Source: Nannocystis sp. (GTDB lineage: Bacteria; Myxococcota_A; Polyangia; Nannocystales; Nannocystaceae). Taken from it: a stretch of 48,728 nucleotides of DNA. The translations under genes and the position numbers were made by a program. Below, in pieces: positions 5,186-39,098 of this stretch (position 1 is its first letter; each line of letters starts with the position of its first letter). The stretch lies in the NCBI GenBank assembly GCA_016712315.1, contig JADJRG010000022.1, positions 1,122,522 through 1,171,249 of the forward strand, written 5' to 3'. The notes beneath the pieces are model-generated. The model was not told the DNA's origin, searched no databases, and was given only the letters and a program-made list of their open reading frames with translations.

Positions 5186-5195
5186 TCAGCCCGCC

Positions 5196-5843
5196 ATGCC
5201 TTGGACCCGCGAAGAGATCGCCGCACGCGCCGCGAGGGAGCTCCCTCGCGGCGGAGTCGTCAACCTCGGGATCGGCATCCCGACCCTGATCAGCAGCTAC
5301 CTCGACCCTGCCGCGGGCATCGTCCTCCACTCGGAGAACGGCCTGCTCGGCATGGGCCCCTTCCCCACCGAGGCTGAGGTCGACGCGCGGGTGATCAACG
5401 CGGGCAAGCAGACCGTGACGATCGTGCCGGGCGGCGCCACCTTCGACTCTGCCCTCTCCTTCGCGATGATCCGCGGCGGCCACGTCGACGTCGCCGTGCT
5501 CGGCGCCATGGAGGTCTCGGCCCGCGGCGACCTCGCCAACTGGATGGTCCCCGGGCGCAAGGTCGCCGGCATCGGCGGCGCGATGGACCTCGCCGTCGGC
5601 GCCCGCAAGGTCATCGCCGTCTTGAACCAGCGCGGCCCGGACGGCGCCAGCAAGCTCGTGGAGCGCTGCTCTCTCCCCCTCACCGCGCCTGCCTGCGTCG
5701 ATCTCGTGATCACTGACATGGCCGTGATCGCGATCGACCCTGGCGGCGGCTTCCGCCTCGTCGAGCTCGCCCCAGGGGTCAGCGTCGCCGACGTCCAGGC
5801 CGCCACAGCGGCCCCTCTGGCCCTCGGCGAGCGCCAGCGCTGA
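5196..5843 (+). CDS. 3-oxoacid CoA-transferase, subunit B (AtoA/ScoB family)
   Basis: It is collinear with E. coli AtoA along its full length, with motifs such as NLGIGIPT, SENGLLGMGP, FDSALSFAMIRGGHVD and GGAMDLAVGA. Confidence 0.85.
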   Translation: MPWTREEIAARAARELPRGGVVNLGIGIPTLISSYLDPAAGIVLHSENGLLGMGPFPTEAEVDARVINAGKQTVTIVPGGATFDSALSFAMIRGGHVDVAVLGAMEVSARGDLANWMVPGRKVAGIGGAMDLAVGARKVIAVLNQRGPDGASKLVERCSLPLTAPACVDLVITDMAVIAIDPGGGFRLVELAPGVSVADVQAATAAPLALGERQR

Positions 5844-8670: not shown

Positions 8671-8680
8671 CCCAAGAGCC

Positions 8681-10054
8681 ATGCGACGCTACGACTACGA
8701 TCTCTTGACCATCGGCGCCGGTTCGGGCGGCGTCCGCGCCTCACGCCTCGCCGGCGCCGCAGGCGCGAGGGTCGCCGTCGCCGAGGATCGCCAGCTCGGC
8801 GGCACCTGCGTCAACCTCGGCTGCATCCCCAAGAAGCTGCTCGTCTACGCCGCTCACCTCCGCGAAGACCTCGAGGACGCCGCCGGCTACGGCTGGAGCG
8901 TGCCCCCCGCGAGCTTCGACTGGCCCGCCCTGATCGCCAACAAAGACCGCGAGCTCGCCCGCCTCGCGTTGATCTACGGCCGCCTGCTCGGCGACGCCGG
9001 CGTCGACGTCATCGACGGCCGCGCCCGCGTGGTCGACCCCCACACCGTCGAGGTCGCCGGCCGCTCGATCACCGCGGAGCGGATCTTGATCGCCACCGGC
9101 GGCTGGCCCGACCTGCCCGACCTACCCGGCGTCGAGCTCGCGATCACCTCCAACGAGGCCTTCCACCTCAAGACCCTGCCGCGGCGGGTCGCCGTCGTCG
9201 GCGCCGGCTACATCGGCGTCGAGTTCGCCGGGATCTTCCACGGCCTCGGCGCCCGCACCACCCTGCTCGGCCGCGGCCGCGGCCTGCTGCGCGGCTTCGA
9301 CGACGATCTGCGCGTCTTCCTCGCCGAGCAGCTCGCCGAAAAGGGCCTCGACCTGCGCTTTCACGCGCCCGTCCGCGCGATCGAGCGCCTCGGCGACGAC
9401 CTGCGCGTCGACTACGGCGACGGCCAGCACCTGCTCGTCGACGCCGTCCTGCTCGCCACCGGCCGCCGCCCCAACACCGCCGGGCTCGGGCTGACCGAGG
9501 CCGGCGTCGCCCTCACCGAGCGCGGCGCCGTCGTCGTCGACGATCATTTCTGCTCCAGCGTACCCAGCATCTTCGCGATCGGCGACGTCACCGATCAGCT
9601 CGCCCTCACCCCCGTCGCGATCGTGCACGGCGCCGCCTTCGCCCAGCGCCACTTCGGCGCCCCGGCCGCCCCGCTCCCCGATCTCACGCTCGCCCCCACC
9701 GCCGTCTTCTCGCAGCCTCCCCTCGCCGCCGTCGGCCTCAGCGAGCACGACGCGAGGCGCCAATACGGCGCCGTCCACGTCTACCAGAGCGCCTTTCGCC
9801 CCTTAAAAAACACCCTCTCGGGTCGCCGCGAGCGCACCTTCATGAAGCTCATCGTCGACCCGGTCAGCGACCGCGTGCTCGGCGTGCACATGGTCGGCGT
9901 CGACGCCCCTGAGATCATCCAGTCGCTCGCCGTCGCCCTCCGCTGCGGCGCCACCAAGGCCCAATTCGACGGCACCCTCGCCCTCCACCCCACCGCCGCC
10001 GAAGAGTTCGTGACCATGCGTCACCGTCGCGCCCCCACCGACGCCGATCGCTGA
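8681..10054 (+). CDS. gor: Glutathione-disulfide reductase
   Basis: It has the FAD site GAGSGG and the redox-active disulfide GGTCVNLGCIPKK. The C-terminal HPTAAEEFVTMR is identical to E. coli Gor, and the whole protein is collinear with Gor. Confidence 0.85.
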   Translation: MRRYDYDLLTIGAGSGGVRASRLAGAAGARVAVAEDRQLGGTCVNLGCIPKKLLVYAAHLREDLEDAAGYGWSVPPASFDWPALIANKDRELARLALIYGRLLGDAGVDVIDGRARVVDPHTVEVAGRSITAERILIATGGWPDLPDLPGVELAITSNEAFHLKTLPRRVAVVGAGYIGVEFAGIFHGLGARTTLLGRGRGLLRGFDDDLRVFLAEQLAEKGLDLRFHAPVRAIERLGDDLRVDYGDGQHLLVDAVLLATGRRPNTAGLGLTEAGVALTERGAVVVDDHFCSSVPSIFAIGDVTDQLALTPVAIVHGAAFAQRHFGAPAAPLPDLTLAPTAVFSQPPLAAVGLSEHDARRQYGAVHVYQSAFRPLKNTLSGRRERTFMKLIVDPVSDRVLGVHMVGVDAPEIIQSLAVALRCGATKAQFDGTLALHPTAAEEFVTMRHRRAPTDADR

Positions 10055-10070: not shown

Positions 10071-12263
10071 TCAGGGATCCAGCCCGACGCCCGCCGTCTC
10101 ACACAGCGCCCGCATCACCGCCTGCGATCCCGCCGGCAAGTGGCGGTAGCTCCAACGAGCCATATCCACGTCCCCGAGCCGACACGCGCTGCGCCCCATC
10201 ACCTCCAGCGCCCCCGTCGTCCGCGCCCGCTCGTAGCTCTCGCTCGCCAGCCGGAACGCCGCCTTCATATCGCCGGACTGCTCGGAGATCTTCGCCTGCT
10301 GCAACAGCTCCTCCGCGATCTTCGCCTCAGCCGACAGCGGCGCGATCGCGGGGCGCGGCGGCTCGTTCACCGGCGGCGCGCTCACCTGCCCGGAGGCCGG
10401 GCCTGGCAGCCTGATCACCCCGCTGACGAACAGCCCGATCACGACCACCGCCGCCAAGAGCGAGCTCCACAGCAGCGCGCCCTTCACCGCCCCGCCCGCG
10501 CCCGGCCCCGCCTGCGCCGCCGCGCTACCAGCCCCTTGGGACCTGTCCAAAGAACCAGCCTGAACAGGCGCCGCGCCGAGCCGCGGCTCGACCCTCGCGC
10601 CCGCGCCTGAGCCGGCTGCGGCCGGCGGCGCCGCCTGCGGGCGCGCGACCGCGCTCGCCGACGCCCCAGCGTTCACCCTACGCGTCGCCGCGTCGGTCTC
10701 CGGCCCCTCGAGCTCCGCCGACGAGCGCCCCGCGGGCCGCCCCTCCGCCCTCACGCCCTCCGCCGCCGCCGGCTCGCCCAGCTCCACCGACGAGCGCCCC
10801 CGCCGGATCGTCGACGACCCGCCCGGCTCGACGCGTCGACGCAGCCCCGAGCCCGCCGCCCCGCCGTCCTCCGGCACCAAGAGGGGCCTGCGGGTGATCA
10901 CCGTGTCCGCCGTGCGTCGCGGCTTGTCCGCCCCATCGCTCGCGCGCGGCCCGACGTCGTGGGCTCGCAGCGCCGTCGCGCTCCGCTCCGCCTCCGCCTC
11001 ACGCGCCGCCTCGACCGCCTCCGCCGCCGCCTCCTCCAGCGGGCTCAGCGCGCGCTCCACCGCCGCCGGCGCCGCGACCTGAGCCTTCGGCGCTGCGGCG
11101 GGTGGAGGCGCCGCGGGCGGCGGCGGCGGGCTCGGCCGCTCCACCACCTGCGGCTGCGCGCCCCCACCGCTCGCCCCCACCGCCATCGGCCCTGAGCGCT
11201 CCGAAGGCCACCGCTCTTGCCCGCTAGGGTCGCGCACCACCATGCCCGAGCGCACCTGTCGCCCCGAGCGTGTCAGCGTCGCGCTGCCTCTTGGGACAGC
11301 ATCCTCCGCGGCGCTCGCCGCCGCCGGCCCCGTCGACGCCCGCGTCAGCGCCTCCACCAGCGCCCCGAGCCCTTGAAAGCGCTCCTCCGGCTTCTTCGCC
11401 AGCGCCCGCCCGATCACCGCCTCCACCCGCGGCGGCACCCAGCCGCGCGGCACCAGCTCGCGCAGCGGCGGCGGCGGGCTCATCAAGTGCATCGCCTCCA
11501 GCCGGGCCACGTTCGGGTCATCGAACGGCAGCCGCCCGCTCAGCAGCTCGTACATGATCACCCCGACCGCGTACACATCGGCGCGCAGATCCACCTTCTC
11601 GCCCGCGCTCAGCTCTGGCGCCCCGTAGCGGGCCAAGCTGCGCACGTGCTCCCCGCCCTCGCGCCACATCCGGCGCACCACCACCTCATCGATCCCCGAG
11701 TTGATGATCTTGATCGTCGCCTCGCTGCCCTCGCCGCGCATCGCGTAGCAGTTGCTCGCCTGCAAGGTGCCCAGCGCCGGCGCCTGCCCCAGCGCGATCA
11801 TCTCGCCGTGGTACGCCCCGATCACCTCCGCGATCCGGATCAGCGGCGTCTTCGCCTGCGCCCAGCTGAGGCGGCCGCGCCGCGCCAGCAGCCCCGCCAA
11901 GCTCTCGCCGCCGACCAGCGGCATCACCACATACAAGTCGTCGTTCGCGAGCGAGCCCACGTCGGTGATGTCGACGATCGAGTCCAGCGCTGAACCTGGC
12001 GCTCGGGGCAGCCGCATATTTCGCTGGAGGCGCGCCTGCAAGAACGCGATCGTCCGCTCCTCGAACGACAGCTCCGGGATGAGCACCTTGACGATCACCC
12101 GCCCCCGCGTCGCCGCGTCTTCGGCCAGGTACACCGCCCCCGTCGTGCCGTCCGCCAGGTGACGCAGCACGCGGTAGCGGTTGGCCAAGCGCTGGCCGAC
12201 GACGGTAGGCGCGACCATCGGCCGCCAGGATACCCGCACTCGGCCCGCGAGCCTACGCGCCAA
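10071..12263 (-). CDS. Membrane-anchored Ser/Thr-kinase-like protein, predicted pseudokinase, with a periplasmic TPR-like C-terminal domain
   Basis: The kinase fold is recognisable: a glycine loop, VIVK lysine, APE (YGAPELS) and DVYAVGVIMYELLSG. The catalytic-loop HRD is replaced by HGE and DFG is replaced by NSG. A Pro/Ala-rich linker, one TM helix and a helical C-terminal domain follow. The start may be the internal Met, which would shorten it to 12218. Confidence 0.7.
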   Translation of the reverse strand: MARRLAGRVRVSWRPMVAPTVVGQRLANRYRVLRHLADGTTGAVYLAEDAATRGRVIVKVLIPELSFEERTIAFLQARLQRNMRLPRAPGSALDSIVDITDVGSLANDDLYVVMPLVGGESLAGLLARRGRLSWAQAKTPLIRIAEVIGAYHGEMIALGQAPALGTLQASNCYAMRGEGSEATIKIINSGIDEVVVRRMWREGGEHVRSLARYGAPELSAGEKVDLRADVYAVGVIMYELLSGRLPFDDPNVARLEAMHLMSPPPPLRELVPRGWVPPRVEAVIGRALAKKPEERFQGLGALVEALTRASTGPAAASAAEDAVPRGSATLTRSGRQVRSGMVVRDPSGQERWPSERSGPMAVGASGGGAQPQVVERPSPPPPPAAPPPAAAPKAQVAAPAAVERALSPLEEAAAEAVEAAREAEAERSATALRAHDVGPRASDGADKPRRTADTVITRRPLLVPEDGGAAGSGLRRRVEPGGSSTIRRGRSSVELGEPAAAEGVRAEGRPAGRSSAELEGPETDAATRRVNAGASASAVARPQAAPPAAAGSGAGARVEPRLGAAPVQAGSLDRSQGAGSAAAQAGPGAGGAVKGALLWSSLLAAVVVIGLFVSGVIRLPGPASGQVSAPPVNEPPRPAIAPLSAEAKIAEELLQQAKISEQSGDMKAAFRLASESYERARTTGALEVMGRSACRLGDVDMARWSYRHLPAGSQAVMRALCETAGVGLDP

Positions 12264-12310
12264 AACGAGCCCGATCCGCGCACGAGCGCGCCAATTCCCC
12301 CGAACGACGC

Positions 12311-12350
12311 AAAAAACCGAGGGCCCGGCGCGCGCGCGCTGAGCCCTCGG
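12311..12350 (-). terminator. Rho-independent terminator for the minus-strand lipoprotein gene (ccgagggc ... gccctcgg followed by T6 on the minus strand)
   Basis: The plus strand shows aaaaaa followed by an 8-bp GC-rich inverted repeat, immediately downstream of the 12372 stop. Confidence 0.45.
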
Positions 12351-12371
12351 TCGAAGCCGAACCGTCCGCCG

Positions 12372-13397
12372 CTACAGCGAGGTCGGGACGTTCCGGATCG
12401 CGATCAACGCGGTCGGGTAGTCGTCGAAGAGATCGCCGTCGTTGTCCGCGTCGACGCAGCCGTCGCTGCTCAAGCTCTTCCCCTTCAACGCCGCCTTCGA
12501 GATGATCTGCGCGCGCGTGAAGTTGGTCTTACGCGGCGTGCTGATGCACACCACGCCGTTCTCGTTGTACAGCGCCTCGACGCCCCATGAGGTGCCCGGC
12601 ACCTGCATACCCAGGCGATCATAGATGTCGATCGCCGTGCCATTCGAGGTGTGCGGCCCCCCATCACCGACGTAGTCGGCCCGCTTCGCCCGCGTGCACG
12701 CTTGGTGATAGGCGCTCAGCGAGTGGCCGTTGAAGGTCGCCCCGGGCACATACCCCCAGCCCGCGCAGTCGCCCAGCGCCGCGCCCAGGCACGCCCACGT
12801 CGACGCGTCGCTGCTCGACGAGATCTTGTCCCCCGTCGCGACGTCCCAGTCGCCCTGGAGCGACACCGCCGGCGCGTTGTTCTCGCACACATTCACCCAG
12901 CTACCGCTCGGCAGCTCCCGCTGCTCGATCAAAAGCCCATCCACCGACACGCCGCTGGGCGTGGCGATCGGCGAGACGCTGGTCAACCGGAACTCGACTG
13001 GCGTGAGCACCCCATCGACCAGGATGTCGGCATCGAGCACAGCCCCTTCGAGGTCGGGCCCGACCTTCTCCTGCCCCTGTTGGGTCAGCGCACGGATCTG
13101 ATTCCCGATCATCGACGGGTCGACCAGATCCTCACCGTTCCAGCGCACCCCGTTCCAGCGCACGCCGTTCCAGCGCACCCCGTTCCAGCGCACCCCGTTC
13201 CAGCGCACCCCGTTCCAGCGCACCCCGTTGTTCTCCACCCCGTTGTCCTGGATGTTTCGCCAGCTGATCCGCCCCTCTTCGTCGAGGAAGTCGGTCATGC
13301 TGCTCCCGTCCTCCGCGATGCCGTGTAGATCCGGATCACAGCCGAAGAGCAGCGTCGTCCCCACGAGCGCCACCAGACTCTTAATTTGATGCATCAT
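12372..13397 (-). CDS. Lipoprotein with an N-terminal (W-N-G-V-R)n pentapeptide tandem repeat and a C-terminal ADYC-like domain
   Basis: The start codons are MMHQIKSLVALVGTTLLFGC, a lipobox. Seven or eight consecutive NGVRW pentapeptides are encoded by a 15-bp DNA tandem repeat. The C-terminus has ...RADYVGDGGPHTSNGTAIDIYDRLG, recalling the myxobacterial ADYC domain. GC content is lower than the neighbours. Confidence 0.65.
   Translation of the reverse strand: MMHQIKSLVALVGTTLLFGCDPDLHGIAEDGSSMTDFLDEEGRISWRNIQDNGVENNGVRWNGVRWNGVRWNGVRWNGVRWNGVRWNGEDLVDPSMIGNQIRALTQQGQEKVGPDLEGAVLDADILVDGVLTPVEFRLTSVSPIATPSGVSVDGLLIEQRELPSGSWVNVCENNAPAVSLQGDWDVATGDKISSSSDASTWACLGAALGDCAGWGYVPGATFNGHSLSAYHQACTRAKRADYVGDGGPHTSNGTAIDIYDRLGMQVPGTSWGVEALYNENGVVCISTPRKTNFTRAQIISKAALKGKSLSSDGCVDADNDGDLFDDYPTALIAIRNVPTSL
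13135..13254. repeat. Perfect and near-perfect 15-bp tandem repeat (ccgttccagcgcacc, about 8 units) inside the CDS
   Basis: Read directly from the sequence. It encodes the WNGVR pentapeptide repeats. Confidence 0.8.
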
Positions 13398-13582
13398 GCC
13401 GTCATCTCCCCGAGGCCAACCTATCACAATCGTGGTGTAGGTGAGGTGAAGGAATTTCTTGAGATATGAGCAAGGCGCCCACTCATCGCCCACTCATCGC
13501 CCACGCACCGCCCACGCACCGCCCACGAACCGCCCGCTCGCCGCCCGCTTACCACCCGCTTACAGCGGACCCGCTCCGCCCG

Positions 13583-17548
<3,966 letters not shown>

Positions 17549-17756
17549 AATTCTTCAAATCCAATACCACAGGACCCCTCACGCTGAGCCGCGCATTCGC
17601 TGACCCATCGGGCCTCTCGCGCGCAGAACTCTGCCCGCGTCCTCAGCCCGAAATCGCCCGCGGCATCGCCCTGGACGCCCGCCCAGCGCCCGCGAGATCA
17701 CCAGCGCACCCCGAAGCGCGCGCGAACGTGCAGCTACAAGCACCGAGCGCCGCGCC

Positions 17757-21627: not shown

Positions 21628-22248
21628 GTGCCCGCACAAGCTCGAAAGCGCGCCTCTTCGCGCAGCCGCCTCGCGGTCGACGAGCGCCGCAACCAGCTCT
21701 TGGAGCTCGGCCTGCGGCTCTTCGCCGACGTGCCCTACGACGAGCTCTCGATCGACGCGATCGCCCACGCCGCCGGCGTCTCCAAGGGCCTGCTCTACCA
21801 CTACTTCCCTGGCAAGCGGGAGTACTACATCGAGACCGTGCGCCTCGCCGCCGAGCGCCTGCTCGCCGACGCCGAGCTCACCGCCGCCGGCCCGCCCTCC
21901 CCGGAGCTGCTCGCCCGCGCCCTCGACACCTACCTCGACTTCGCCCTGCGGCACGCCGGCGCCTACACCACCCTGATGCGCGGCGGAGGCCTCGGCGCCG
22001 ACCCTGAGGTCGCCGCGATCATCGGCGCCACCCGCAGCGCCCTCATTGATCGCCTCCGCCTCCGCCTCGGCATCGAGGGCGACGATCCCCACCTCCTCGT
22101 CTTCCTGCGCGGCTGGATCGGCCTCGTCGAGCTCACCAGCCTCGAGTGGCTCGACCGCCCGAGCCTCGACCGCCACCAGCTCCGCGACCTCTGGGTGCGC
22201 CTCTTCGTCGCCGGCCTCGTCGCCGCCGCGCCGCCTAGCGCACCATGA
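21628..22248 (+). CDS. TetR/AcrR family transcriptional regulator
   Basis: The N-terminal TetR HTH is LSIDAIAHAAGVSKGLLYHYFPGKREYY. It is divergently arranged with the hydrolase gene. Confidence 0.85.
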   Translation: MPAQARKRASSRSRLAVDERRNQLLELGLRLFADVPYDELSIDAIAHAAGVSKGLLYHYFPGKREYYIETVRLAAERLLADAELTAAGPPSPELLARALDTYLDFALRHAGAYTTLMRGGGLGADPEVAAIIGATRSALIDRLRLRLGIEGDDPHLLVFLRGWIGLVELTSLEWLDRPSLDRHQLRDLWVRLFVAGLVAAAPPSAP

Positions 22249-23152
22249 TCATGCCCTGCTTCGTCGACATCTTGCCGGTCCGCCAGCACGCCTCCATGTC
22301 ATCGAGGTCGTGGTAGAACAGGTCAAAGCCGCCCGCCTGCAGCCCGTAGTATTTTCCGTCGTAGGGCATGTCGCGCAGCCAAAACACCTCGACGAGCGCC
22401 GTCCTGCCGGCGTAGCGCAGCATCAGCACGTCCTCTGTCGCGGGGCACACGTTCGAGGGCAACGAAGCCAAGCCCAGCGTCAGCTCGCTCTCTTGAAACA
22501 TGTCGACGAAGCCGACGGGCACCCCGCTGAGCACGAACGCGTTCTCCCCCCAGCTCTTGCCCTCGCCGCGATCGCCCACCAGCAGCTCCGAGAAGCTGAT
22601 CCCGAGCGCCGCGATCCCCAACGAGTACGGCCCCGAATCGTCCTCTACCGCCCCGCGCTGCGAGCTCCAACCGAAGTCGCCCCCCGCCATGGCTACCGAG
22701 CGGCCCACCAGCGTCCAGCCGCCGCCGACCACATCCATGTCGCAATAAAGATCCACCGTCTGCGCCCGGCCCTCCACGTCGACCCGATAGATCCCCGAAG
22801 GCAGCGCCGGATCCGTCTTGTGCGCCTCCTTGCACGAGAACACCCCGGGGAGATACGGCGGCTCCTCTGCCGAGCCGCTCGTGCCGCTCGTGTCGCTCGT
22901 GTCGCTCGTGTCGCTCGTGACGCTCGTGACGCCCGTATAGCTCGTATCCAGCGTCATCGCCCCCGTCGAGCTCGCCCCCGTCGAGCTCGTCGTCGATGTC
23001 GTCACCCCCGTCGTCGTCTCGGCTGCCGACGTCGAGCCGCCGGTCGACGACTCCCCGCTCATCGTCTCGCCGCCGCCTTTGTCCGAAAACAGCGGATTGT
23101 CGACCAGACACCCGGCGGCGAGCACCCCTATCAGCACGACCAAGCGCCCCAT
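22235..23152 (-). CDS. Lipoprotein with a Ser/Thr-rich linker and a C-terminal fibrinogen-related (FReD-like) domain
   Basis: It has a lipobox (VLAAGC) and an S/T/G-rich linker. The hallmark fibrinogen C-domain segment GIYRVDVEGRAQTVDLYCDMDVVGGGWTLVGRS matches the consensus ...VYCDMTTDGGGWTV.... Confidence 0.6.
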   Translation of the reverse strand: MGRLVVLIGVLAAGCLVDNPLFSDKGGGETMSGESSTGGSTSAAETTTGVTTSTTSSTGASSTGAMTLDTSYTGVTSVTSDTSDTSDTSGTSGSAEEPPYLPGVFSCKEAHKTDPALPSGIYRVDVEGRAQTVDLYCDMDVVGGGWTLVGRSVAMAGGDFGWSSQRGAVEDDSGPYSLGIAALGISFSELLVGDRGEGKSWGENAFVLSGVPVGFVDMFQESELTLGLASLPSNVCPATEDVLMLRYAGRTALVEVFWLRDMPYDGKYYGLQAGGFDLFYHDLDDMEACWRTGKMSTKQGMIMVR

Positions 23153-23319
23153 AAAAACCCTGACCCCGCCACTCTAGAGCATCCTCTCCGGCCAGGCGAG
23201 GACCTCCACGCGGATCCTATTAAAACCCGCAAATCGCCTCGTCTCACCCTCCTCCGCGCCGGACCGCGACGAGATAATCGGTGTTCATATCACAATTTAA
23301 TCACCGCTCAATTTCGAGC

Positions 23320-28750: not shown

Positions 28751-28826
28751 TCGACGCACCTCCGCAGCACTTGCGCGGCTGACCTGGCGATCGCCGGCCT
28801 ACCCTCGCCAGGCCTGGAGCGCCCCT

Positions 28827-30314
28827 ATGTCCCTCGAAGAGACCGAGATCAACGAAGCCCTCGCCGAGATCCAACGAGACCCCCTCGCCGCCCTCGATCG
28901 GCTGCCCCCCAAGCAGCACCTCCGCGGCGCCGCAGCCCCTGCCCTCTTCAGCGCCGACGACGTCGCCCAAGGCCGCCATATTGAAGGCCGCGACCTGCTC
29001 CGCCAGCGCCACACCATGCTCGACAACGGCGTCGTCATCCGCCTCGCTGAGGTCCTCCCCGGCCGCGCCCCCTACGAGCAGCACGATCGCGCCGAGAACC
29101 TCGTCGATCGCCTCGAGCACCGCGACCTGCGCGCGATGGAGGCCGCCGGCCTGCGCGAGTCCAGCCTCGACGAGTCCCCCTGGTCCGACGACTATTGGGG
29201 GATCTACCGCGGCGTACTCGGCTGCCGGTACGCCGATCCGCGCTTCCCCAGCGACGCCGACTGGGCCAAGAACCACGCCTACGTCCGCGATCGCCCCGCC
29301 CTCGAGATCGCCGCCACCGGCGATCTCGACGCCATCGATCGCCTCGCCCCCGCCGAGAAGTACGACCTGCTCGTCGGCGACCCCCAAGGCACCCTCACCG
29401 CCCGCATGTGGCAAGAGGGCCGCGCCTACTACGAGCGCGACGGCAAGGTCGAGCGCTGGATGGGGATCTGCCACGGCTGGGCCCCCGCCGCGTACATGCT
29501 GCCGCGCCCGCGGCGCGCCGTCACCGCGCTCGCCGCCGACGGCCACACCCGCCTCCGCTTCTACCCCTCCGACATCAAGGGCCTCGCCTCCCTCTTATGG
29601 GCCAACACCAGCGCCGTCTCCCGCTTCATCGGCGGCCGCTGCAACGACAAAGATCCCGCGCGCGACGAGATCGGCCGCATGAGCTCCTCGCGCTGCTTCG
29701 ACACCAACCCCGGCACCTGGCACCTCGCGATCGTCAACCAGATCGGCGTCGCTCGCCGCTCCTTCGTCCTCGACGCGACCTTTGATTACGAGGTCTGGAA
29801 CCAGCCCGCCCACGCCTACAGCTACCGCACCTTCAACCCGCTCGAGTACCGCTACGCCAGCGATCTCAGCCGCGCGATCGTCCCGATCGACCAGTTCCCC
29901 CCGGAGCGAGATCGCTTCCGCCGCTACCGCGGCGCGAACGTCGCCGCGATCGTCGGCGTCGTCATGGAGGTCGACTACGTCGTCGAGACCGCCCCCAGCC
30001 ACGACACCGAGGACGACCCCAGCCGCGACGGCATCACCCGCGTCCGCTACATCTACGACCTCGAGCTCGACCCCGCCGGCGCGATCCTCGGCGGCGAGTG
30101 GTACCAGAACCGCCACCCTGACTTCCTCTGGACCCCCCCGCCCGGCGCCCGCGCCCGCACCGCCGCCGACGCCTACGCCACCGGCGACTGGCTCGAAGGA
30201 CAGGTCATTCCGGGCACCTGGCGCAGCGCCGCCCTCCGCGCCGCTGAGGCCTACGGCGGCGCCGCCCCCCTCGCCCGGATCGTCGAGCGCCTCATCGAGC
30301 TCGCCCGCGCCTGA
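28827..30314 (+). CDS. Hypothetical protein with a transglutaminase-like Cys-His-Asp core signature
   Basis: The 495-aa ORF has no signal peptide. GICHGWA fits the transglutaminase-core pattern G-x-C-x-x-[FWY]-A. Downstream, WHLAIVNQIG...VLDATFD gives candidate His and Asp residues. Its stop lies 1 nt before the start of the C11 peptidase gene. Confidence 0.6.
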   Translation: MSLEETEINEALAEIQRDPLAALDRLPPKQHLRGAAAPALFSADDVAQGRHIEGRDLLRQRHTMLDNGVVIRLAEVLPGRAPYEQHDRAENLVDRLEHRDLRAMEAAGLRESSLDESPWSDDYWGIYRGVLGCRYADPRFPSDADWAKNHAYVRDRPALEIAATGDLDAIDRLAPAEKYDLLVGDPQGTLTARMWQEGRAYYERDGKVERWMGICHGWAPAAYMLPRPRRAVTALAADGHTRLRFYPSDIKGLASLLWANTSAVSRFIGGRCNDKDPARDEIGRMSSSRCFDTNPGTWHLAIVNQIGVARRSFVLDATFDYEVWNQPAHAYSYRTFNPLEYRYASDLSRAIVPIDQFPPERDRFRRYRGANVAAIVGVVMEVDYVVETAPSHDTEDDPSRDGITRVRYIYDLELDPAGAILGGEWYQNRHPDFLWTPPPGARARTAADAYATGDWLEGQVIPGTWRSAALRAAEAYGGAAPLARIVERLIELARA

Positions 30315-30315
30315 C

Positions 30316-31871
30316 ATGCGCGCCTTCGCCCTCCTCGCCGCCGCCCTCCTCCTCGCCGCCTGTCCGTGGCCGCTCCCGTCCGCGCGCCCTCCGAGCGCGG
30401 ACGGCCCCGCCGCCCTGCCCGCCTGCGCCCTCGCCTGGGCCGATCTGCCCGCCCACGCCCGCGCCCCCCAGCCCGGCGACTACGACGGGTACTACAGATC
30501 TGTCCAACGGGACATGTGTAAAAAGCCATGGACCGTGCTCCTCTACATGGCCGCGGACAACCAGGACCTGCCCCTGCACGCCTACTGGAACCTCCGCGAC
30601 CTCGAGACCGCCGCCGGCGCCGCCTCCAGCGATCACCACGACATCATCGTCCACCTTGATCTTCCCGGCCCCAGCGGCCTGCGGCGCCTCCACATCTTCA
30701 ACGACCCCGGCGCGCCCGCCCCCACCGCGACCGAGCTCGCAGGCGCCGCCCCCGACCTGCTCCGCTCCCCCGTCGTCGCCTTCGATCCCGACGAGTCCAC
30801 CCCGCCCGCCGACACCTTGCGAGAATTCGTCACCTGGGCCGCCCGCGCCTACCCCTCCGAGCGCCTCATGGTGATCCTCTGGGGCCACGGCCAAGGCTGG
30901 CGCCCCGCCCTCATCGAGCCCCCCGAGGCCCTGCGTTACCGCCCCGGCGGCTTCGTCGGCGGCATCGCCTTTGACCACGGCGAAGGCACCGTGCTCGACA
31001 TCCCCAGCCTTCACAGCGCCCTCGCCGCCCTACCCCGCCCCGTCGACGTGCTCGCCGCCGACGCCTGCCTCATGCAGACCGTCGAGGTCGGCCTCGAGCT
31101 GCAAAGCGTCGCTCGTTACCTCGTTGGGTACCCACAGATCGCCCCCTACCCCGGCCTCCCCTACAGCCTCCTCCTGCCCGCCTTCACCGCTCCGGCCCTC
31201 GGCGCCAGCGCCTGCCCGCCCCTCGACGACGCCTGCCAGCTCGCCGAGCGGATCCCCGCGATCTACGGCCGAGCCGTCGACGCCGGCCACTACGCCCTAC
31301 GCGCCCCTGACGACGCCATCGAGCGCACCTACGTGATCAGCGTCGTCGCCACCCAGCCCCTCGGCGAGCGCCTCGCCCCCGCCCTCCACGATCTAGGAGC
31401 CGCCCTCGACGCCTGGCGCCTCGCCGATCCGCTCCGCGCCATCGACCTGCAAGCCTTGCTCGCCCCAGGCGGCCTCCCTGGCTTCCTCGGCGGCACCCGC
31501 GATCTCGGCGTCTTCGCCGCTGGCCTCCGCCACCTGCTCGCCCGGGAGCGATCTCGCGCCCCCGCCGATCCACCCAGCCCCGCCAGCGTTCAGCTCGGCG
31601 CCGCCCTCGATCGCCTCGACGCCGCCCTGCTCGCCACCGTGCTCGCCCGCAGCCTCGGCGACAGCTACCGCAGCGACCCCCCTACCCAGGCCTCGCCGTA
31701 CCGGGCGGCCTCGCTGGCCTCGCCGTCTGGTTGCCGCGCGACGAAGGCGAGCTGCGCACCATCCTCCCGCGCTACCAGAGCGCCCCGCTCTTCGCCCGCA
31801 CCGGGGCCGCCGCCGAGCCCACCCCTTGGGAGCGCTGGCTGCTCGGCGTCTACGCGGCGCCGCCCGAGTAG
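30316..31871 (+). CDS. Clostripain-like (peptidase C11) cysteine peptidase lipoprotein, with an apparent frameshift near 31676
   Basis: It has a lipobox (LLLAAC). The C11 motifs are YMAADNQD, MVILWGHGQGW (catalytic His) and LAADACLMQ (catalytic Cys). After the C6 run at 31676-31681 the protein-like reading (…VWLPRDEGELRTILPRYQSAPLF…PWERWLLGVYAAPPE*) moves to the +2 frame and ends at 31871. Confidence 0.7.
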
Positions 31872-31880
31872 CGCCCTCGC

Positions 31881-33125
31881 TCACGGCAGCGCGCAGTAGC
31901 TCGGCATGCTCGGCGGCAGCCCGCCCGCGTACGGCGGCGGCTGCTCGCCGAACGGGTGATCTGCCAAGAACTGCCGCGCCGCCGGCACCGCCGCCACCGG
32001 GATCACGTGCCCCATGTTGTGGTTACACACGAAGCCGAAGCTCCCTTGCTTCTGCAAATAATCCAGATAGTTCGCGCTCGTCTTCGGGAACGACACCACC
32101 ACCACGTCCGAGGGCCCGCCGTGGAAGATCATCGCCGCGACCTTATTCGCCGGCGCGTCCCAGGGCGGCATCAAGCCGTCGAGCAGCCCGCCCGAGTACG
32201 GCACCACGCTCGCCACGTACGAAGAGCGGCGCACGCTCATCTGCGACGTATGCAGCCCGCCCGCGCTCAGCCCCATGCTGTGGATCCGCCGCACATCGAT
32301 CCCCACCTCTTGGATCGCGCACGCCAGCACCTCATCGGCCAGCAGCAGATCGTCCTCCTTCTCGGTCAGCACCAACCACCACGGCGAAGGCGCCGCCGCC
32401 GGATCCGCGTGCGGCGCCGCCACGATCCCGCCTGCCGCCGTCACCGCGTCGATCCCGGCCTGTCCGAGCCCCGTCAACGCCTCTGTCGGCGCGCTGCCGG
32501 TGCCGTGCCAATAAAAGACCACCGGCCCCTCCGCCTCGCTCGCCTTAGGATCGATCCACAGCCGCACCTTCCGCGGAGCGATCCCTTTGGGTGAGAACAT
32601 CACGTCGCCGCTGACGAACGACGGGCAAGGCGCGGTGGGCACCGGCAGCTCGCTCGGCACCGGCTCCTCGACCCCCATCGTGTCGCCCGACGTATCACCC
32701 GACGTATCACCCGTCGGATCACCCGTCGGATCGCCCGTCGTGCTCCCCGTCGTATCACCCGTCGGATCACCCGTCGTGCTCCCCGTCGGATCGCCCGTCG
32801 TCGTCGTCGGATCGCCCGTCGTCGTCGTCGGATCGCCCGTCGGATCCCCCGAAGTCTCGCCGCTGCTCCCGCTGCTGCTCGCCTCGCCAGAGCCCTCGCT
32901 GCTCCCCTCGGAGCTCGCGCCGGTGGCCTCGGAGTCGCCGCTGCTGTCATCACCGCAGGCGGAGCTCAGCGCGGCGGCGCTGGAGAGCGCCAAGAAGAGG
33001 GCCGTACGGGACAAGGAGGAGGGGAGCGCGCGTCGGGTCGGGATCACCGCCCCTGCGTAGCACGAAGCCGCGCGCTCTCGCGCGACAAAAGCGCCCCGCC
33101 CTCTACCGCCCCTGGGCTTGATCAC
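31881..33125 (-). CDS. Secreted esterase / PHB-depolymerase-like alpha/beta hydrolase lipoprotein with a (G-D-P-T)n linker
   Basis: It has a lipobox (LSSAC) and a long G/S/T/D/P linker with tandem GDPTG units. The hydrolase domain shows VVFYWHGTGS and the nucleophile elbow HSMGLSAGG. The true start may be an internal GTG, with the protein beginning VIPTRRALPSS and running into the lipobox (about 33047). Confidence 0.65.
   Translation of the reverse strand: MIKPRGGRGRGAFVARERAASCYAGAVIPTRRALPSSLSRTALFLALSSAAALSSACGDDSSGDSEATGASSEGSSEGSGEASSSGSSGETSGDPTGDPTTTTGDPTTTTGDPTGSTTGDPTGDTTGSTTGDPTGDPTGDTSGDTSGDTMGVEEPVPSELPVPTAPCPSFVSGDVMFSPKGIAPRKVRLWIDPKASEAEGPVVFYWHGTGSAPTEALTGLGQAGIDAVTAAGGIVAAPHADPAAAPSPWWLVLTEKEDDLLLADEVLACAIQEVGIDVRRIHSMGLSAGGLHTSQMSVRRSSYVASVVPYSGGLLDGLMPPWDAPANKVAAMIFHGGPSDVVVVSFPKTSANYLDYLQKQGSFGFVCNHNMGHVIPVAAVPAARQFLADHPFGEQPPPYAGGLPPSMPSYCALP
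32683..32850. repeat. Tandem 12-bp repeats (cccgtcggatca variants) encoding the GDPT linker
   Basis: Read directly from the sequence, within the esterase CDS. Confidence 0.6.
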
Positions 33126-36571: not shown

Positions 36572-36582
<11 letters not shown>

Positions 36583-39033
36583 TCCGCGCCATCGACGGGT
36601 CGTAGAGCGGCCGCAGCGAGGCGATCGCCGGATAGACCCGCTCCGCGATCGCCACCTGCCAGCGCCCCGAGTCCAGCCAAGCCTGGTCGATCGCCACCTC
36701 CGCCGCGACCATCGCCAGCCCCACCGCGCCGCCCAGCGTATGGCCATACGAGGCCGCCCGCACGTAGCCAACGGCCACCCCGTCGCGCAGCACGATCTCC
36801 GCGTGGAACATCATCGCCTCCGCGTCTTGGACGAGGATCTGCACCAAGCGCCGCCGCAGCGGCCCCGCCGCCTTGTGAGCGAGCACCGCCTCTTTGCCGA
36901 TGAACCCGCCCGGCTTCTTCAAGTCCACCGCGAAGCCCAGCCCGGCCTCCAGCGGCGAGTCTGTGTTGTCGATGTCGTGGCCGTAGTCGCGGTACGCCTT
37001 CTCCATGCGGAGGCTCGCCAGCGCCTTCAGCCCCGCGTGGCGCAGCCCGAAGCGCGCGCCGACCTCGACGATGCGGTCGTACACATGGGTCGCCTGCTCG
37101 GCCGGGATATACAGCTCGTACCCCAGCTCCCCCAGGTACGTGATCCGCACGCACAGCACCCGCGCCAGCCCGACGTCGATCTCCCGCGCCGTACGGAACG
37201 GGAACGCCTCGTTCGACAGATCCGCGCCGGTCAGCGCCTGCATCAACGCCCGCGAGTCCGGCCCTTGCACGTTGAGCTGCGCGTAGCCCGAGGTCACGTC
37301 GGTCACCGACATGAACGCGTCCGCGGGCGTATGGCGGCGCATCCACGCCTCCACGTGGCGGTGCGCCGTATCGGAGGCGACCACCCAGAAGCGGTCCTCC
37401 GCCAGCTTCGTCACCGTCAGATCCGCCTCCAGCGTCCCCCCCTCATTGAGCCACTGCGTATACGTGATCCACCCCGCCTCGCCGTCGACCTGATTCGCCG
37501 AGATCCAGTTGAGAACGCGCCCCGCGTCCCGCCCCTGCACCAAGAATTTCGCCATAAACGACATATCCATCACGATCACCCCCTCCCGCGCCGCCTTGTG
37601 CTCCTCAGCCCACCATTGGAACCACCGCTGCCGCCCCCACGACAGCGGCCCCGGATCCGCCGACTCGCCCGCCGGCGCGTACCAGTCCGCCCCCTCCCAG
37701 CCGCTCACGTCGCGGAAGTACGCCCCCTGCGCCGCCAGCCGCTCATAAAACGCCGAGCGCTTGGCCCCCCGCGCCGTCTGCATCGACCGCGTCGGATAGT
37801 GACACTGAAACACCATGCCCAGCGACTCGACCGTGCGCAGCCGCCGGTACTCCGGCGTATTTTGGTACGGGTGAAGCCGATCCACGTGCATCCCCGTCAC
37901 GTCCACGTCAGGCCGCCCATGGATGATCCAGTGCGCCAGCACCCGCCCCAGCCCGCCCCCGGTCAGGATCCCGATCGAGTTCAGCCCCGCCGCGACGAAG
38001 TACCCGCGCAGCTCCGGCGCCTCGCCCACGCAGGGCCGCAGATCGGGCGTGAAGCTCTCCGGTCCGCAGAAGAATTTTTTAATGCCCGCCTCCAGCGACG
38101 CTGGCACCCGCGCCATCGCCCGCTCGAGGTACGGCCCCATCCGCTCCCAGTCCGGCGCGATCTCGCCGAACGAGAAATTCTCCGGGATCCCCTCCACCTT
38201 CCACGGCGCGCAGATCGGCTCAAAGAGCCCGATCAGCAGCCCGCCCCCTCCTCGCGGATATACGCGTGCGACGCCGGGTCCTCGATCACCGGCAGATCGC
38301 GGTGCACCCCCGCGATCGGCTCGGTCAATAGATAGTAGTGCTCCGCTGCTTGCAGCGGCACGGTCACCCCAGAGGCCGCCCCGAGCTGCCGCGCCCAGAT
38401 CCCCGCGCAGTTCACCACGTACTCGCACTCGATCGCCCCCGCCGTGGTCGCCACCCCCACGACCGCGCCGCCCCGCGTCAGCACCTGCGTCGCCGCCACC
38501 CCCTCGACGATCGTCGCGCCTTGCAGCCGCGCCCCCTTCGCCAGCGCCATCGTCACGTCCACCGGGTCGACCCGCCCGTCCTCCTTCACATAAAAGCCCG
38601 CGAGGATGTCCTCGGTGCGCGCGAGCGGGAACAGCGCGCTCACCTCGCGCGGCGACAGCTCCTGCACGTCCACCCCGCACAGCCGGTTAAACGCCGACAC
38701 CCGGCGATACTCCTCCAGCCGGTCGCGATCCGCCGCGCACTCGATGAACCCGATCTGCCGCAGCCCCGTCGCCTGCCCGGTCTCCGCCTCGAGCCGCGCG
38801 TAGAGGTCGCGCGTGTATTTCCGCATCTCGGTCGACGTCTCCGAGGTCGAGCCGAACGTGACCATCAGGCCAGCCGCGTGCCACGTCGTGCCCGAGGTGA
38901 TCCGGTCGCGCTCGAGCAGCACCACGTCACGCCAGCCCATGTGCGCGAGGTGATACGCGACCGAGCAGCCGATCACCCCCCCGCCGATCACGACCACCCG
39001 AGCGCGCTGAGGGAGAGCTCCATCGATCCGCAT
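36572..39033 (-). CDS. FAD-dependent oxidoreductase with C-terminal GcvT aminomethyltransferase domain (dimethylglycine/sarcosine dehydrogenase family), with an apparent frameshift near 38245
   Basis: The N-terminal part (38233..39033) has VVVIGGGVIGCSVAYHLA and a covalent-FAD His context (SGTTWHAAGLM). The C-terminal part (36572..38200) is collinear with DMGDH/GcvT. A C5/G5 run falls at the junction; ...HAYIREEGGGLLIGLFEP... is restored by a 1-nt change. Confidence 0.75.
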
Positions 39034-39098
39034 GAGGCGGGCAAGCTAGGCGAGCGAGAGCGCGCGGTCAACCACGCCCGCGCCGCCGCGCCGCCCGC

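What the first reader, a model, noticed from the sequence alone, without database searches (positions are those of the whole stretch)
28827..31871. Translationally coupled pair: transglutaminase-like Cys-His-Asp protein and a clostripain-like (C11) cysteine peptidase lipoprotein
The stop of the 495-aa cytoplasmic-looking protein (GICHGWA fits the transglutaminase-core pattern G-x-C-x-x-aromatic-A, with downstream His and Asp candidates) lies 1 nt before the ATG of a lipobox-bearing C11 peptidase (WGHGQGW and DACLM catalytic dyad). The first protein could be a maturase, chaperone, inhibitor or second catalytic component for the secreted protease. I do not recognise this pairing as a described system.
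Basis: partly seen in the sequence, partly recalled or inferred. Interest (0 to 1): 0.6.

Follow-up and report, generated by a model that had tools for sequence, protein, structure and literature searches.

The report
Conserved transglutaminase–clostripain protease gene pair
A protein-crosslinking enzyme of the Phytophthora GP42 type, so far described only in oomycetes and marine Vibrio, sits next to its own secreted clostripain-type protease in a gene pair conserved across predatory bacteria, and the protease most likely switches the crosslinker on by cutting off its N-terminal segment.

Summary
Gene 1 (28827-30314, 495 aa) ends 1 nt before the ATG of gene 2 (30316). Gene 1 is a GP42-type transglutaminase (Pfam PF16683, only fold match PDB 3TW5), not a classical transglutaminase core; its catalytic Cys215-His216 are adjacent, not separated. 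Gene 2 is a lipobox-bearing C11 peptidase (His191/Cys251), but as sequenced it is frameshifted: a C6 run at 31677-31682 is C7 in four near-identical assemblies, where the gene is 518 aa and would end at 31871.

The pairing is strongly conserved. The C11 gene follows the transglutaminase in 15 Myxococcota genome loci, and the transglutaminase precedes this C11 subfamily in 30 of 30 informative metagenome loci, against 0 of 45 generic C11 loci. In cable bacteria, Thiocystis and Crocosphaera the neighbour is instead a caspase-like C14 peptidase.

An almost invariant Gly-[Arg/Lys]-Ala lies in a predicted flexible loop at residues 79-81. Characterised C11 lipoproteins remove prodomains at Arg-Ala. 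My best reading, inferred not shown, is a pro-transglutaminase with a dedicated activating protease.

One puzzle remains: the Myxococcota transglutaminase has no signal peptide, while its Bdellovibrionota counterparts do. I found no published description of the pairing.

The parts
28816..28819 (+). GGAG Shine-Dalgarno-like site 7 nt upstream of the transglutaminase ATG
   Evidence: Read directly from the sequence. No equivalent site precedes the C11 ATG.
28827..30314 (+). GP42-type transglutaminase homologue (PF16683), 495 aa, no signal peptide
   Evidence: Pfam E 1.8e-37, 129 bits against a cutoff of 25. PDB 3TW5 by sequence, E 2e-29. AF2 model pLDDT 91, with 3TW5 the only fold match, E 4e-17. 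More than 2,000 homologues at 50-75% identity.
28827..29066 (+). N-terminal segment, residues 1-80, absent from mature GP42 and from the Pfam model; candidate pro-segment
   Evidence: The Pfam and PDB matches start at residues 111-116. Many distant relatives align only from about residue 78-85 onward and carry different N-termini. pLDDT is 60-77 over residues 31-90.
29061..29069 (+). Gly79-Arg80-Ala81, candidate protease cleavage site
   Evidence: In 85 sequences: G 61, R 61 plus K 20, A 83. Also kept in divergent secreted members. pLDDT below 50 at residues 77-79. Fragipain cuts BFT and Fab1 at Arg-Ala. The cleavage itself is inferred.
29469..29474 (+). Cys215-His216, the catalytic 'CH' motif within GICHGWA
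   Evidence: Cys215 is invariant and His216 at least 90% conserved in 85 sequences. Aligns with the S-H of the 3TW5 chain, the position described as the GP42 'CH' motif.
29793..29807 (+). VWNQP, counterpart of the Pep-13 core of GP42
   Evidence: W324, N325 and Q326 are invariant. Identical to the EVWNQP of 3TW5 in the alignment.
30114..30122 (+). His430-Pro-Asp432 (HPDFLW), a conserved motif shared with GP42; role unassigned
   Evidence: D432 is invariant and H430 at least 90% conserved. HPDFLW is also present in 3TW5.
30312..30318 (+). Stop-start junction TGA-C-ATG (1-nt spacer)
   Evidence: Related loci show gaps of 1, 3, -4, -8 and -14 nt and 8 nt in a Bdellovibrionales genome.
30316..31871 (+). 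Clostripain-family (C11) peptidase gene; 518 aa when the missing C is restored. As sequenced, the frame breaks and the ORF runs to 31899
   Evidence: Pfam PF03415 E 4.8e-23. PDB 6N9J E 6e-17. Intact 518-aa orthologue in L080-L083. The repaired translation is 509/518 identical to L080.
30316..30363 (+). Lipoprotein signal peptide MRAFALLAAALLLAA-C16
   Evidence: The orthologues inspected carry N-terminal hydrophobic leaders; a lipobox-like context was found by script in 26 of 47 loci, and others look like signal-peptidase-I sites.
30886..30888 (+). Catalytic His191 (WGHGQGW)
   Evidence: Invariant in 16 orthologues. Aligned with the HG of solved C11 structures.
31066..31068 (+). Catalytic Cys251 (DACLMQ)
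   Evidence: Invariant in 16 orthologues. Aligned with the DAC of solved C11 structures.
31677..31682 (+). C6 homopolymer, one base shorter than in four relatives; causes the frameshift in the C11 gene from residue 457
   Evidence: Further single-base indels in neighbouring genes.

Best explanation
This is a self-contained two-gene module. Gene 1 makes a GP42-type, papain-fold Cys-His acyl-transferase, probably a Ca2+-dependent protein transglutaminase like GP42. It carries an extra N-terminal segment of about 80 residues. Gene 2, translationally coupled to gene 1, makes a secreted, membrane-anchored clan-CD peptidase of family C11.

I propose that the peptidase is the dedicated processing enzyme of the transglutaminase. 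It would cut at the conserved Gly-Arg|Ala (R80-A81) in the flexible loop between the N-terminal segment and the catalytic domain. That cut would release or activate a crosslinking enzyme acting on envelope or extracellular proteins.

Shown: the two family assignments, the catalytic residues, the signal-peptide pattern, and the conserved linkage in both directions.

Inferred: transglutaminase activity, the cleavage and its site, the direction of action, and how the signal-less Myxococcota enzyme reaches the protease.
For: Family assignments.
- Gene 1. Gene 2.

Linkage.
- The C11 gene lies immediately downstream in 15 Myxococcota genome loci.
- In the reciprocal test, 30 of 30 informative loci of this C11 subfamily have the transglutaminase directly upstream, against 0 of 45 loci with generic C11 genes.
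- The pair also occurs in a Bdellovibrionales genome.
- No other neighbour gene cluster came out as conserved across the Myxococcota loci.
- Stop and start overlap, or are 1-8 nt apart, in many loci.

Partner swap within one protease clan.
- In 13 loci of cable bacteria, Thiocystis, Crocosphaera and Desulfobacca the neighbour is a C14 caspase-like peptidase. From general knowledge, C11 enzymes and bacterial metacaspase-type enzymes both cut after Arg or Lys.

Compartments match outside Myxococcota.
- Both proteins carry Sec signals in Bdellovibrionota-type loci. Neither carries one in the C14 loci.

Candidate cleavage site.
- G79-[R/K]80-A81 is nearly invariant, sits in a loop with low pLDDT, and marks the point where many distant relatives begin to align.

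Precedent.
- The C11 lipoprotein fragipain removes the N-terminal prodomains of BFT (R211-A212) and Fab1 (R200-A201). Bacteroidales surface C11 lipoproteins activate CDCL toxins.
- The 3TW5 chain has 367 residues and its residue 34 aligns with window residue 116. The N-terminus of that crystallised GP42 chain therefore maps to about residue 83 here. From memory, GP42 is cut from a 529-aa precursor.
Against: - The window's transglutaminase and its whole Myxococcota, Thiothrix and cable-bacteria clade lack a signal peptide, while the C11 partner is a lipoprotein. As encoded, the two proteins are in different compartments.
- Transglutaminases with no protease neighbour (Thiothrix, Hahella, Chitinimonas) keep the same architecture, so a linked protease is not obligatory.
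- The G-[R/K]-A motif is absent from several more distant relatives, and its conservation could reflect a structural or catalytic role.
- I could not inspect model coordinates to see whether residues 1-80 cover the active site. Residues 1-30 are predicted with high confidence, which may mean they pack onto the core and are not a disposable propeptide.
- There are no biochemical data for any bacterial member.
- In this window the C11 gene is frameshifted as sequenced.
Confidence: 0.42

Rival explanations
1. Two enzymes act on a shared third substrate. The protease trims a matrix, sheath, coat or envelope protein and the transglutaminase then crosslinks it, in the way thrombin and factor XIII both act on fibrin. 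The protease does not process the transglutaminase itself.
For: The conserved linkage fits sequential action on one target equally well. The closest relatives are dominated by organisms with elaborate extracellular structures: Myxococcota, sheathed Thiothrix and cable bacteria. In the oomycete literature GP42 is regarded as a cell-wall crosslinker.
Against: No conserved third gene accompanies the C11 pairs. This model does not explain the conserved G-[R/K]-A loop or the separable N-terminal segment. The compartment problem in Myxococcota remains.
Confidence: 0.2
2. Damage- or death-triggered system. The signal-less enzyme is kept latent in the cytoplasm. It meets the periplasmic C11 (or Ca2+-activated C14) and external Ca2+ only when a cell's membrane is breached. 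It then crosslinks proteins to seal or immobilise the damaged cell, in an organism that lives in groups or filaments.
For: The transglutaminase has no signal peptide while the C11 is a lipoprotein, throughout Myxococcota. The closest relatives are mostly social or filamentous bacteria. C14 caspase-like partners occur in cable bacteria. GP42 is Ca2+-dependent. A covarying Cys272/Cys290 pair suggests a disulfide, which would form only outside the reducing cytoplasm. A fungal transglutaminase-domain protein protects hyphae at the septal pore after wounding (PMC10848947, title and abstract only).
Against: The idea is purely circumstantial. Bdellovibrionota relatives are not multicellular and secrete both proteins. 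Thiocystis and Crocosphaera are, from general knowledge, not filamentous. No PADLOC defence model matches the transglutaminase, the C11 or the third gene c7. The window neighbours are metabolic genes.
Confidence: 0.13
3. The reverse direction. The transglutaminase-like protein acts on the protease, as a maturase, an inhibitor or chaperone, or by crosslinking it to the envelope.
For: Tight coupling with the protease gene downstream. The conserved linkage does not by itself fix a direction. The C11 partner evolves faster than the transglutaminase: 59-64% against 73-74% identity on two metagenome contigs of matching length.
Against: C11 enzymes are known to activate themselves (general knowledge; the solved zymogens are listed). 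The transglutaminase family is far larger than this C11 subfamily and often occurs alone. It pairs with an unrelated C14 elsewhere. It is therefore the constant component and the protease is the accessory.
Confidence: 0.08
4. Protein 1 is not a crosslinking enzyme here. It is a papain-fold hydrolase (peptidase, amidase or deamidase) that forms a proteolytic cascade with the clan-CD enzyme.
For: The fold belongs to the papain-like superfamily. Several database sources label relatives as 'peptidase'. Only one family member, GP42, has been assayed.
Against: The motifs shared with GP42 are all kept: CH, the D249 equivalent, VWNQP and HPDFLW. From memory (Brunner et al. 2002), the VWNQP region is needed for GP42 transglutaminase activity.
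Confidence: 0.1
5. The two genes are neighbours by descent only and have no functional connection.
For: None beyond the absence of experiments.
Against: 30 of 30 against 0 of 45 in the reciprocal test. The pair is retained across Myxococcota and Bdellovibrionota while the flanking genes change. A partner from the same protease clan occurs in other phyla.
Confidence: 0.03

Closest known systems
GP42 transglutaminase of Phytophthora sojae (PDB 3TW5; Pfam PF16683 TGase_elicitor)
   Same: Same family and fold. Shares the adjacent Cys-His motif, the VWNQP (Pep-13 core) motif and HPDFLW. From memory, GP42 is also made as a longer precursor; the N-terminus of the crystallised 3TW5 chain maps to about residue 83 here.
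   Different: The window protein is bacterial, has no signal peptide, and has about 110 extra N-terminal and about 50 extra C-terminal residues. Identity is 20% in the Foldseek structural alignment. The literature describes GP42 homologues only in oomycetes and marine Vibrio, whereas this clade is large: 2,322 clusters at 50% identity with E <= 0.001. No linked protease is described for GP42.
Fragipain and other Bacteroidales surface C11 lipoproteins (Fpn, DpnB), which activate BFT, Fab1 and CDCL toxins
   Same: A C11 cysteine peptidase made as a lipoprotein. These enzymes remove N-terminal prodomains at Arg-Ala or after Arg/Lys. The window protein has the same His/Cys dyad and similarity to solved Bacteroides C11 structures.
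   Different: Fragipain is encoded away from its substrates and serves several of them. Here the protease gene is fused into an operon with one candidate substrate. The candidate substrate is an enzyme, not a toxin, and in this organism it lacks an export signal.
Zymogen transglutaminases with activating proteases: Streptomyces mobaraensis pro-transglutaminase with TAMEP, and factor XIII with thrombin (from general knowledge)
   Same: The logic is the same: a crosslinking enzyme is kept inactive by an N-terminal peptide that a specific protease removes.
   Different: The transglutaminase folds and families are unrelated, and so are the proteases (a metalloprotease and a serine protease). Those pairs are not translationally coupled gene pairs.
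Caspase-like (C14) peptidase modules of multicellular bacteria (Kaur et al. 2020/2021, PMC7159879, PMC8195603)
   Same: Clan-CD peptidases in Myxococcota, cyanobacteria and filamentous bacteria. A C14 gene replaces the C11 gene next to the same transglutaminase in cable bacteria and others.
   Different: Those systems are built around STAND/vWA-MoxR NTPases and effector-associated domains. Neither is adjacent to the transglutaminase here. The papers mention transglutaminase-like peptidases only as rare effector domains, not PF16683. No PADLOC model matches.

Membership tests
GP42-type transglutaminase (Pfam PF16683, TGase_elicitor) | Profile match above the curated threshold | tested here: met
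   129.4 bits against a cutoff of 25, E 1.8e-37, residues 111-438.
GP42-type transglutaminase (Pfam PF16683, TGase_elicitor) | GP42 fold | tested here: met
   AF2 model pLDDT 91, pTM 0.91. 3TW5 is the only significant PDB match, E 4e-17, TM 0.67 normalised to the target.
GP42-type transglutaminase (Pfam PF16683, TGase_elicitor) | Adjacent Cys-His ('CH') catalytic motif | tested here: met
   C215-H216. Cys is invariant and His at least 90% conserved. The motif aligns with the S-H of the 3TW5 chain, and is described in PMC10318531. That the crystallised protein is a Cys-to-Ser variant is my inference.
GP42-type transglutaminase (Pfam PF16683, TGase_elicitor) | Third polar residue of the triad (Asp on a non-core helix, or Asn on a strand) | tested here: inconclusive
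   D249 and N325 are conserved and align with an Asp and an Asn of GP42. I could not read Reiss et al. 2011 to confirm which residues are catalytic.
GP42-type transglutaminase (Pfam PF16683, TGase_elicitor) | Ca2+-dependent protein crosslinking activity | not testable with these tools
   Requires an enzyme assay.
GP42-type transglutaminase (Pfam PF16683, TGase_elicitor) | Secreted or cell-wall location | tested here: not met
   The N-terminus is acidic and not hydrophobic, and there is no start codon in the 49 in-frame codons upstream of the ATG. Bdellovibrionota and many distant relatives do have signal peptides.
Classical transglutaminase core (Pfam PF01841) | Profile match; Cys, His and Asp on separate elements | tested here: not met
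   No PF01841 hit at E <= 1. The His is adjacent to the Cys.
Peptidase family C11 (clostripain, Pfam PF03415) | Profile match above the curated threshold | tested here: met
   82.7 bits against a cutoff of 25.8. PDB 6N9J E 6e-17. It is not an equivalog of clostripain itself: TIGR02806 scores 13 bits against a cutoff of 550.
Peptidase family C11 (clostripain, Pfam PF03415) | His-Cys catalytic dyad (HG ... DAC) | tested here: met
   H191 and C251 are invariant in 16 orthologues and align with solved structures.
Peptidase family C11 (clostripain, Pfam PF03415) | Intact full-length reading frame | tested here: not met
   As sequenced, one base is missing in the C-run at 31677-31682, so the last 62 conserved residues are out of frame. 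This is probably an assembly error.
Peptidase family C11 (clostripain, Pfam PF03415) | Cleavage after Arg or Lys | not testable with these tools
   Requires substrate profiling.
C11 lipoprotein plus pro-protein activation pair (fragipain type) | The protease is an exported lipoprotein | tested here: met
   LLLAA-C16 lipobox. N-terminal signal peptides in the orthologues inspected.
C11 lipoprotein plus pro-protein activation pair (fragipain type) | The substrate has an N-terminal prodomain bounded by an exposed Arg-Ala | tested here: inconclusive
   G-[R/K]-A at residues 79-81 is nearly invariant, lies in a low-pLDDT loop and sits at a homology boundary. Cleavage has not been demonstrated.
C11 lipoprotein plus pro-protein activation pair (fragipain type) | Protease and substrate share a compartment | tested here: not met
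   Not met for this window and for Myxococcota, where the transglutaminase lacks a signal peptide. Met in Bdellovibrionota-type loci.
Known anti-phage defence or conflict systems (PADLOC) | Match to a defence-system protein model | tested here: not met
   No hit for the transglutaminase, the C11 or c7. Only a generic caspase model matches the C14 partner of other phyla.

The most novel reading that the evidence does not exclude
The module is a bacterial 'clotting' or wound-response device. A latent cytoplasmic crosslinking enzyme is activated only when a cell in a swarm or filament is breached. At that point it meets its periplasmic (C11) or Ca2+-activated (C14) clan-CD protease, together with external Ca2+. 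It then crosslinks proteins to seal off or immobilise the damaged cell. This would be functionally analogous to transglutaminase and caspase-family action in animal and plant damage responses.
Probability: 0.12. Interest if true: 0.85.

Novelty: new variant of a known kind. Interest (0 to 1): 0.55.

Why it matters
The GP42 transglutaminase family is known almost only as a Phytophthora cell-wall enzyme and plant immune elicitor. The literature says its homologues are restricted to oomycetes and marine Vibrio.

The data here show a large, strongly conserved bacterial clade. It has 50-75% identity across Myxococcota, Thiotrichales and cable bacteria, and 2,322 clusters at 50% identity with E <= 0.001. 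In several lineages it is locked to a clan-CD cysteine protease.

If the protease does activate the enzyme, the result would be:
- a new, genetically compact zymogen-activator pair for protein crosslinking in bacteria;
- a first handle on what these enzymes do in predatory, social and filamentous bacteria;
- a possible source of controllable transglutaminases for biotechnology.

The mismatch of compartments in Myxococcota is a concrete and testable puzzle.

Tried and rejected
- **Classical transglutaminase core.** PF01841 gave no Pfam hit, so I rejected that assignment.
- **NCBIfam.** Nothing for protein 1, and only a sub-threshold clostripain match for protein 2.
- **PADLOC defence models.** No match for either protein, so I did not file the pair as a defence system.
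- **Reiss et al. 2011 (PMC3234954).** The paper could not be retrieved, so the GP42 triad numbering and Ca2+ sites remain unverified.
- **Literature on the pairing.** I searched for transglutaminase with caspase and conflict systems, for PF16683, for cable bacteria with transglutaminase, for 'transglutaminase elicitor' with bacteria, and for transglutaminase with clostripain and myxobacteria. None described the pairing.
- **Wider operon.** I considered that the upstream Memo, SDR and enoyl-CoA hydratase genes belong to the same operon. They are syntenic only in near-identical assemblies and did not come out as a conserved neighbour cluster in other Myxococcota, so I rejected them as parts.
- **Programmed frameshift in the C11 gene.** Four relatives have the intact C7 run, and other single-base deletions break neighbouring genes, so I rejected this.
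- **Sorangium So ceGT47 (L071).** Here the transglutaminase is preceded by a repeat lipoprotein with no similarity to C11, C14 or c7. L070 and L040 also lack a C11 gene, so the linkage is not universal in Myxococcota.
- **Word-indexed search with the C11 protein.** It returned only 17 hits and was of little use for distribution.


Full report
**What is in the sequence**

The window is 70% G+C. Third-position GC marks two consecutive coding regions on the + strand.

Gene 1 runs from 28827 to 30314 and encodes 495 aa. A GGAG lies 7 nt upstream of its ATG. Its stop, TGA at 30312-30314, is followed by a single C and then the ATG of gene 2 at 30316. No ribosome-binding-like site precedes that ATG.

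Gene 2 begins MRAFALLAAALLLAAC, a lipobox. It contains WGHGQGW (His191) and DACLMQ (Cys251).

One correction concerns the end of gene 2. The reading frame from 30316 cannot reach 31871.
- The GC3 phase switches near 31675.
- The other frame encodes GLAVWLPRDEGEL...PPE*, which is the conserved C-terminus of the orthologues.
- Four about 97-98% identical metagenome assemblies (L080-L083) have the same gene order and an intact 518-aa gene.
- The window has C6 at 31677-31682 where these assemblies have C7.
- Two other single-base deletions relative to L080 split neighbouring genes, so an assembly indel is the likelier cause.

**What the two proteins are**

Protein 1 matches Pfam PF16683 (TGase_elicitor) at E 1.8e-37. 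It does not match the classical transglutaminase core.
- Its only relative with a solved structure is the Phytophthora sojae GP42 transglutaminase, 3TW5 (E 2e-29).
- An AlphaFold2 model built on 85 homologues has pLDDT 91 and pTM 0.91.
- That model matches only 3TW5 in the PDB (E 4e-17).

GP42 is a Ca2+-dependent transglutaminase. A 2023 classification places it in the papain-like superfamily with an unusual active site. The His follows the Cys directly, forming a 'CH' motif, and it is held by an Asp on another helix or by an Asn (PMC10318531).

In the window this motif is Cys215-His216 inside GICHGWA.
- Cys215 is invariant and His216 is at least 90% conserved.
- D249, the VWNQP motif (the core of the Pep-13 elicitor peptide) and HPDFLW are also shared with GP42.

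Protein 2 matches Peptidase_C11 (E 4.8e-23). It also matches solved Bacteroides C11 structures across the His/Cys dyad.

**Is the pairing conserved?**

Protein 1 has more than 2,000 close homologues at 50-75% identity over the full length. An exhaustive search found 2,322 clusters at 50% identity with E <= 0.001.

The 79 closest genome loci are Myxococcota, Thiothrix/Thiolinea/Leucothrix, cable bacteria and a few others.
- In 15 loci, all Myxococcota, a C11 orthologue lies immediately downstream.
- Three Myxococcota loci with enough flanking sequence lack it (L040, L070, L071).

I then ran the reciprocal test by fetching metagenome loci with a C11 alignment.
- Thirty of 30 full-length orthologues with enough upstream sequence have the transglutaminase directly upstream.
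- Five further orthologue loci were too short to judge.
- None of 45 generic C11 genes has a transglutaminase within up to 4 kb upstream.

The pair also occurs in a Bdellovibrionales genome, with an 8-nt gap. Flanking genes are not conserved, so the two genes form the unit. Stop-start spacings of 1, 3, -4, -8 and -14 nt recur across loci.

**A second kind of partner**

In 13 loci the transglutaminase sits next to a different gene pair. These loci come from Electrothrix and Electronema, other Desulfobulbaceae, Thiocystis, a Crocosphaera MAG and a Desulfobacca MAG.
- The first gene encodes a caspase-like C14 peptidase (PF00656, E 1.7e-9).
- The second encodes a 388-aa protein with no Pfam match, which I call c7. 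It overlaps the C14 gene by about 17 nt.
- The gene order varies between loci, and some loci have two flanking transglutaminase copies.

C11 and C14 both belong to peptidase clan CD. From general knowledge, both typically cut after Arg or Lys. Replacement by a non-orthologous protease of the same clan argues for a direct functional tie.

In Thiothrix and relatives the gene stands alone among housekeeping genes.

**Compartments**

Every C11 orthologue I inspected has an N-terminal signal. It is a lipobox in Myxococcota and resembles a signal-peptidase-I site in lower-GC loci.

The transglutaminase of the window and of its whole high-identity clade has none. In contrast, the lower-GC C11-linked loci and the Bdellovibrionales genome have a Sec signal placed in front of the same conserved N-terminal region. 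More distant relatives in Hahella (with a PPC domain), Zooshikella, Chitinimonas and others also look secreted. The C14 and c7 proteins have no signal.

The partner's compartment therefore matches that of the enzyme in Bdellovibrionota (both exported) and in cable bacteria (both cytoplasmic). It does not match in Myxococcota, which includes this window. This is the main unexplained point.

A covarying Cys272/Cys290 pair suggests a disulfide: 56 sequences have both, 21 have neither and 8 have one. That would fit an extracytoplasmic phase in the protein's life.

**How it most likely works**

The first ~110 residues lie outside the Pfam model and outside the matched part of the crystallised GP42 chain.
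- Residues 31-90 have lower model confidence, with pLDDT below 50 at residues 77-79.
- Position 79 is Gly in 61 of 85 sequences.
- Position 80 is Arg or Lys in 81 of 85.
- Position 81 is Ala in 83 of 85.
- The motif persists in the divergent secreted members.
- Many distant relatives align only from about residue 78-85 onward and carry unrelated N-termini.

The precedents point the same way.
- The C11 lipoprotein fragipain removes the N-terminal prodomains of BFT at R211-A212 and of Fab1 at R200-A201 (PMC8406203).
- Bacteroidales surface C11 lipoproteins activate CDCL toxins after Arg or Lys (PMC11169675).
- The 367-residue 3TW5 chain aligns so that its N-terminus falls near window residue 83. 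From memory, mature GP42 is cut from a 529-aa precursor.

I therefore favour a pro-transglutaminase whose dedicated clan-CD protease cuts at R80|A81. The family assignments, motifs, linkage and signal pattern are shown. The cleavage, its effect and the crosslinking activity are inferred.

**Comparison and novelty**

Both proteins are members of known families. The logic of zymogen plus activator is also known, from fragipain with its toxins, Streptomyces pro-transglutaminase with TAMEP, and factor XIII with thrombin.

Three things are not described in anything I could find:
- the size and conservation of the bacterial GP42-type clade, which the literature restricts to oomycetes and Vibrio;
- its obligate pairing with a C11 subfamily in Myxococcota and Bdellovibrionota;
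- the alternative C14 plus c7 partner.

The relevant searches were made, and PADLOC gave nothing. I rate this a new variant of a known kind, of moderate interest. The interest would be higher if the compartment puzzle reflects a damage-activated crosslinking system.

Noticed in passing
L010, L016, L017, L034, L042-L044, L047, L048, L056, L059, L061, L062 (e.g. L044:9527-11642): In cable bacteria, Thiocystis, a Crocosphaera MAG and a Desulfobacca MAG, the transglutaminase is clustered with a C14 caspase-like peptidase. That gene is followed by an overlapping gene for a 388-aa protein (c7) with no Pfam, PADLOC or other annotation. The function of c7 is unknown.
   Followed up: partly
L047, L048, L059, L061 (about 4135-5470 and 8001-9455): Electrothrix loci carry two transglutaminase paralogues flanking the C14-c7 pair.
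   Followed up: no
window 29640-29642 and 29694-29696 (Cys272, Cys290): These two cysteines covary across 85 homologues: 56 have both, 21 have neither, 8 have only the first and none has only the second. This suggests a disulfide or paired site in a protein that lacks an export signal.
   Followed up: partly
window 13583-17554 (-), with 12372-13493 (-) and 10071-12371 (-): A 1,323-aa protein combines a Ser/Thr kinase, an nSTAND1 NTPase and an FGE-sulfatase-type domain. It sits next to an ADYC-domain protein and another kinase. This architecture is of the kind discussed for conflict systems of multicellular bacteria.
   Followed up: no
window about 34384 and 35216; 36572-38686 (-) with 38233-39045 (-): Further single-base deletions relative to L080 split a 364-aa gene and an ion-channel gene. 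A DAO/FAO_M/GCV_T dehydrogenase is divided into two overlapping ORFs. The window assembly probably contains several indel errors.
   Followed up: partly
window 31881-33125 (-), repeats about 32716-32867: The convergent downstream gene encodes an esterase-like protein (weak Abhydrolase_2 match) with a long Gly/Asp/Pro/Thr-rich repeat linker (GDPTGDPTTTTGDPT...). The linker length differs from that in L080.
   Followed up: no
window 22235-23173 (-): A borderline Pfam match to the fibrinogen C-terminal domain: 22.4 bits against a cutoff of 22, with only 37 residues aligned. It is curious near a transglutaminase but may be chance.
   Followed up: no
P0093 (Thiofilum flexile), P0111 (Thiothrix anitrata); alignment A1 columns 540-613: Thiothrix-group transglutaminases carry a C-terminal Pro/Thr-rich extension that ends in a short hydrophobic-basic tail (e.g. 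WWERLLAALRGGR). This may be an anchoring or sorting signal.
   Followed up: no
L071:6549-7922 (Sorangium cellulosum So ceGT47): Here the transglutaminase is preceded, stop-to-start, by a lipoprotein with three internal repeats of about 110 aa and no Pfam match. There is no C11 peptidase.
   Followed up: partly
(P0002/P0122, P0003/P0123, P0005/P0127): The C11 partner diverges faster than the transglutaminase. For pairs that appear to share a contig (matching contig lengths), identity to the window is 64, 59 and 48% against 74, 73 and 63%.
   Followed up: no
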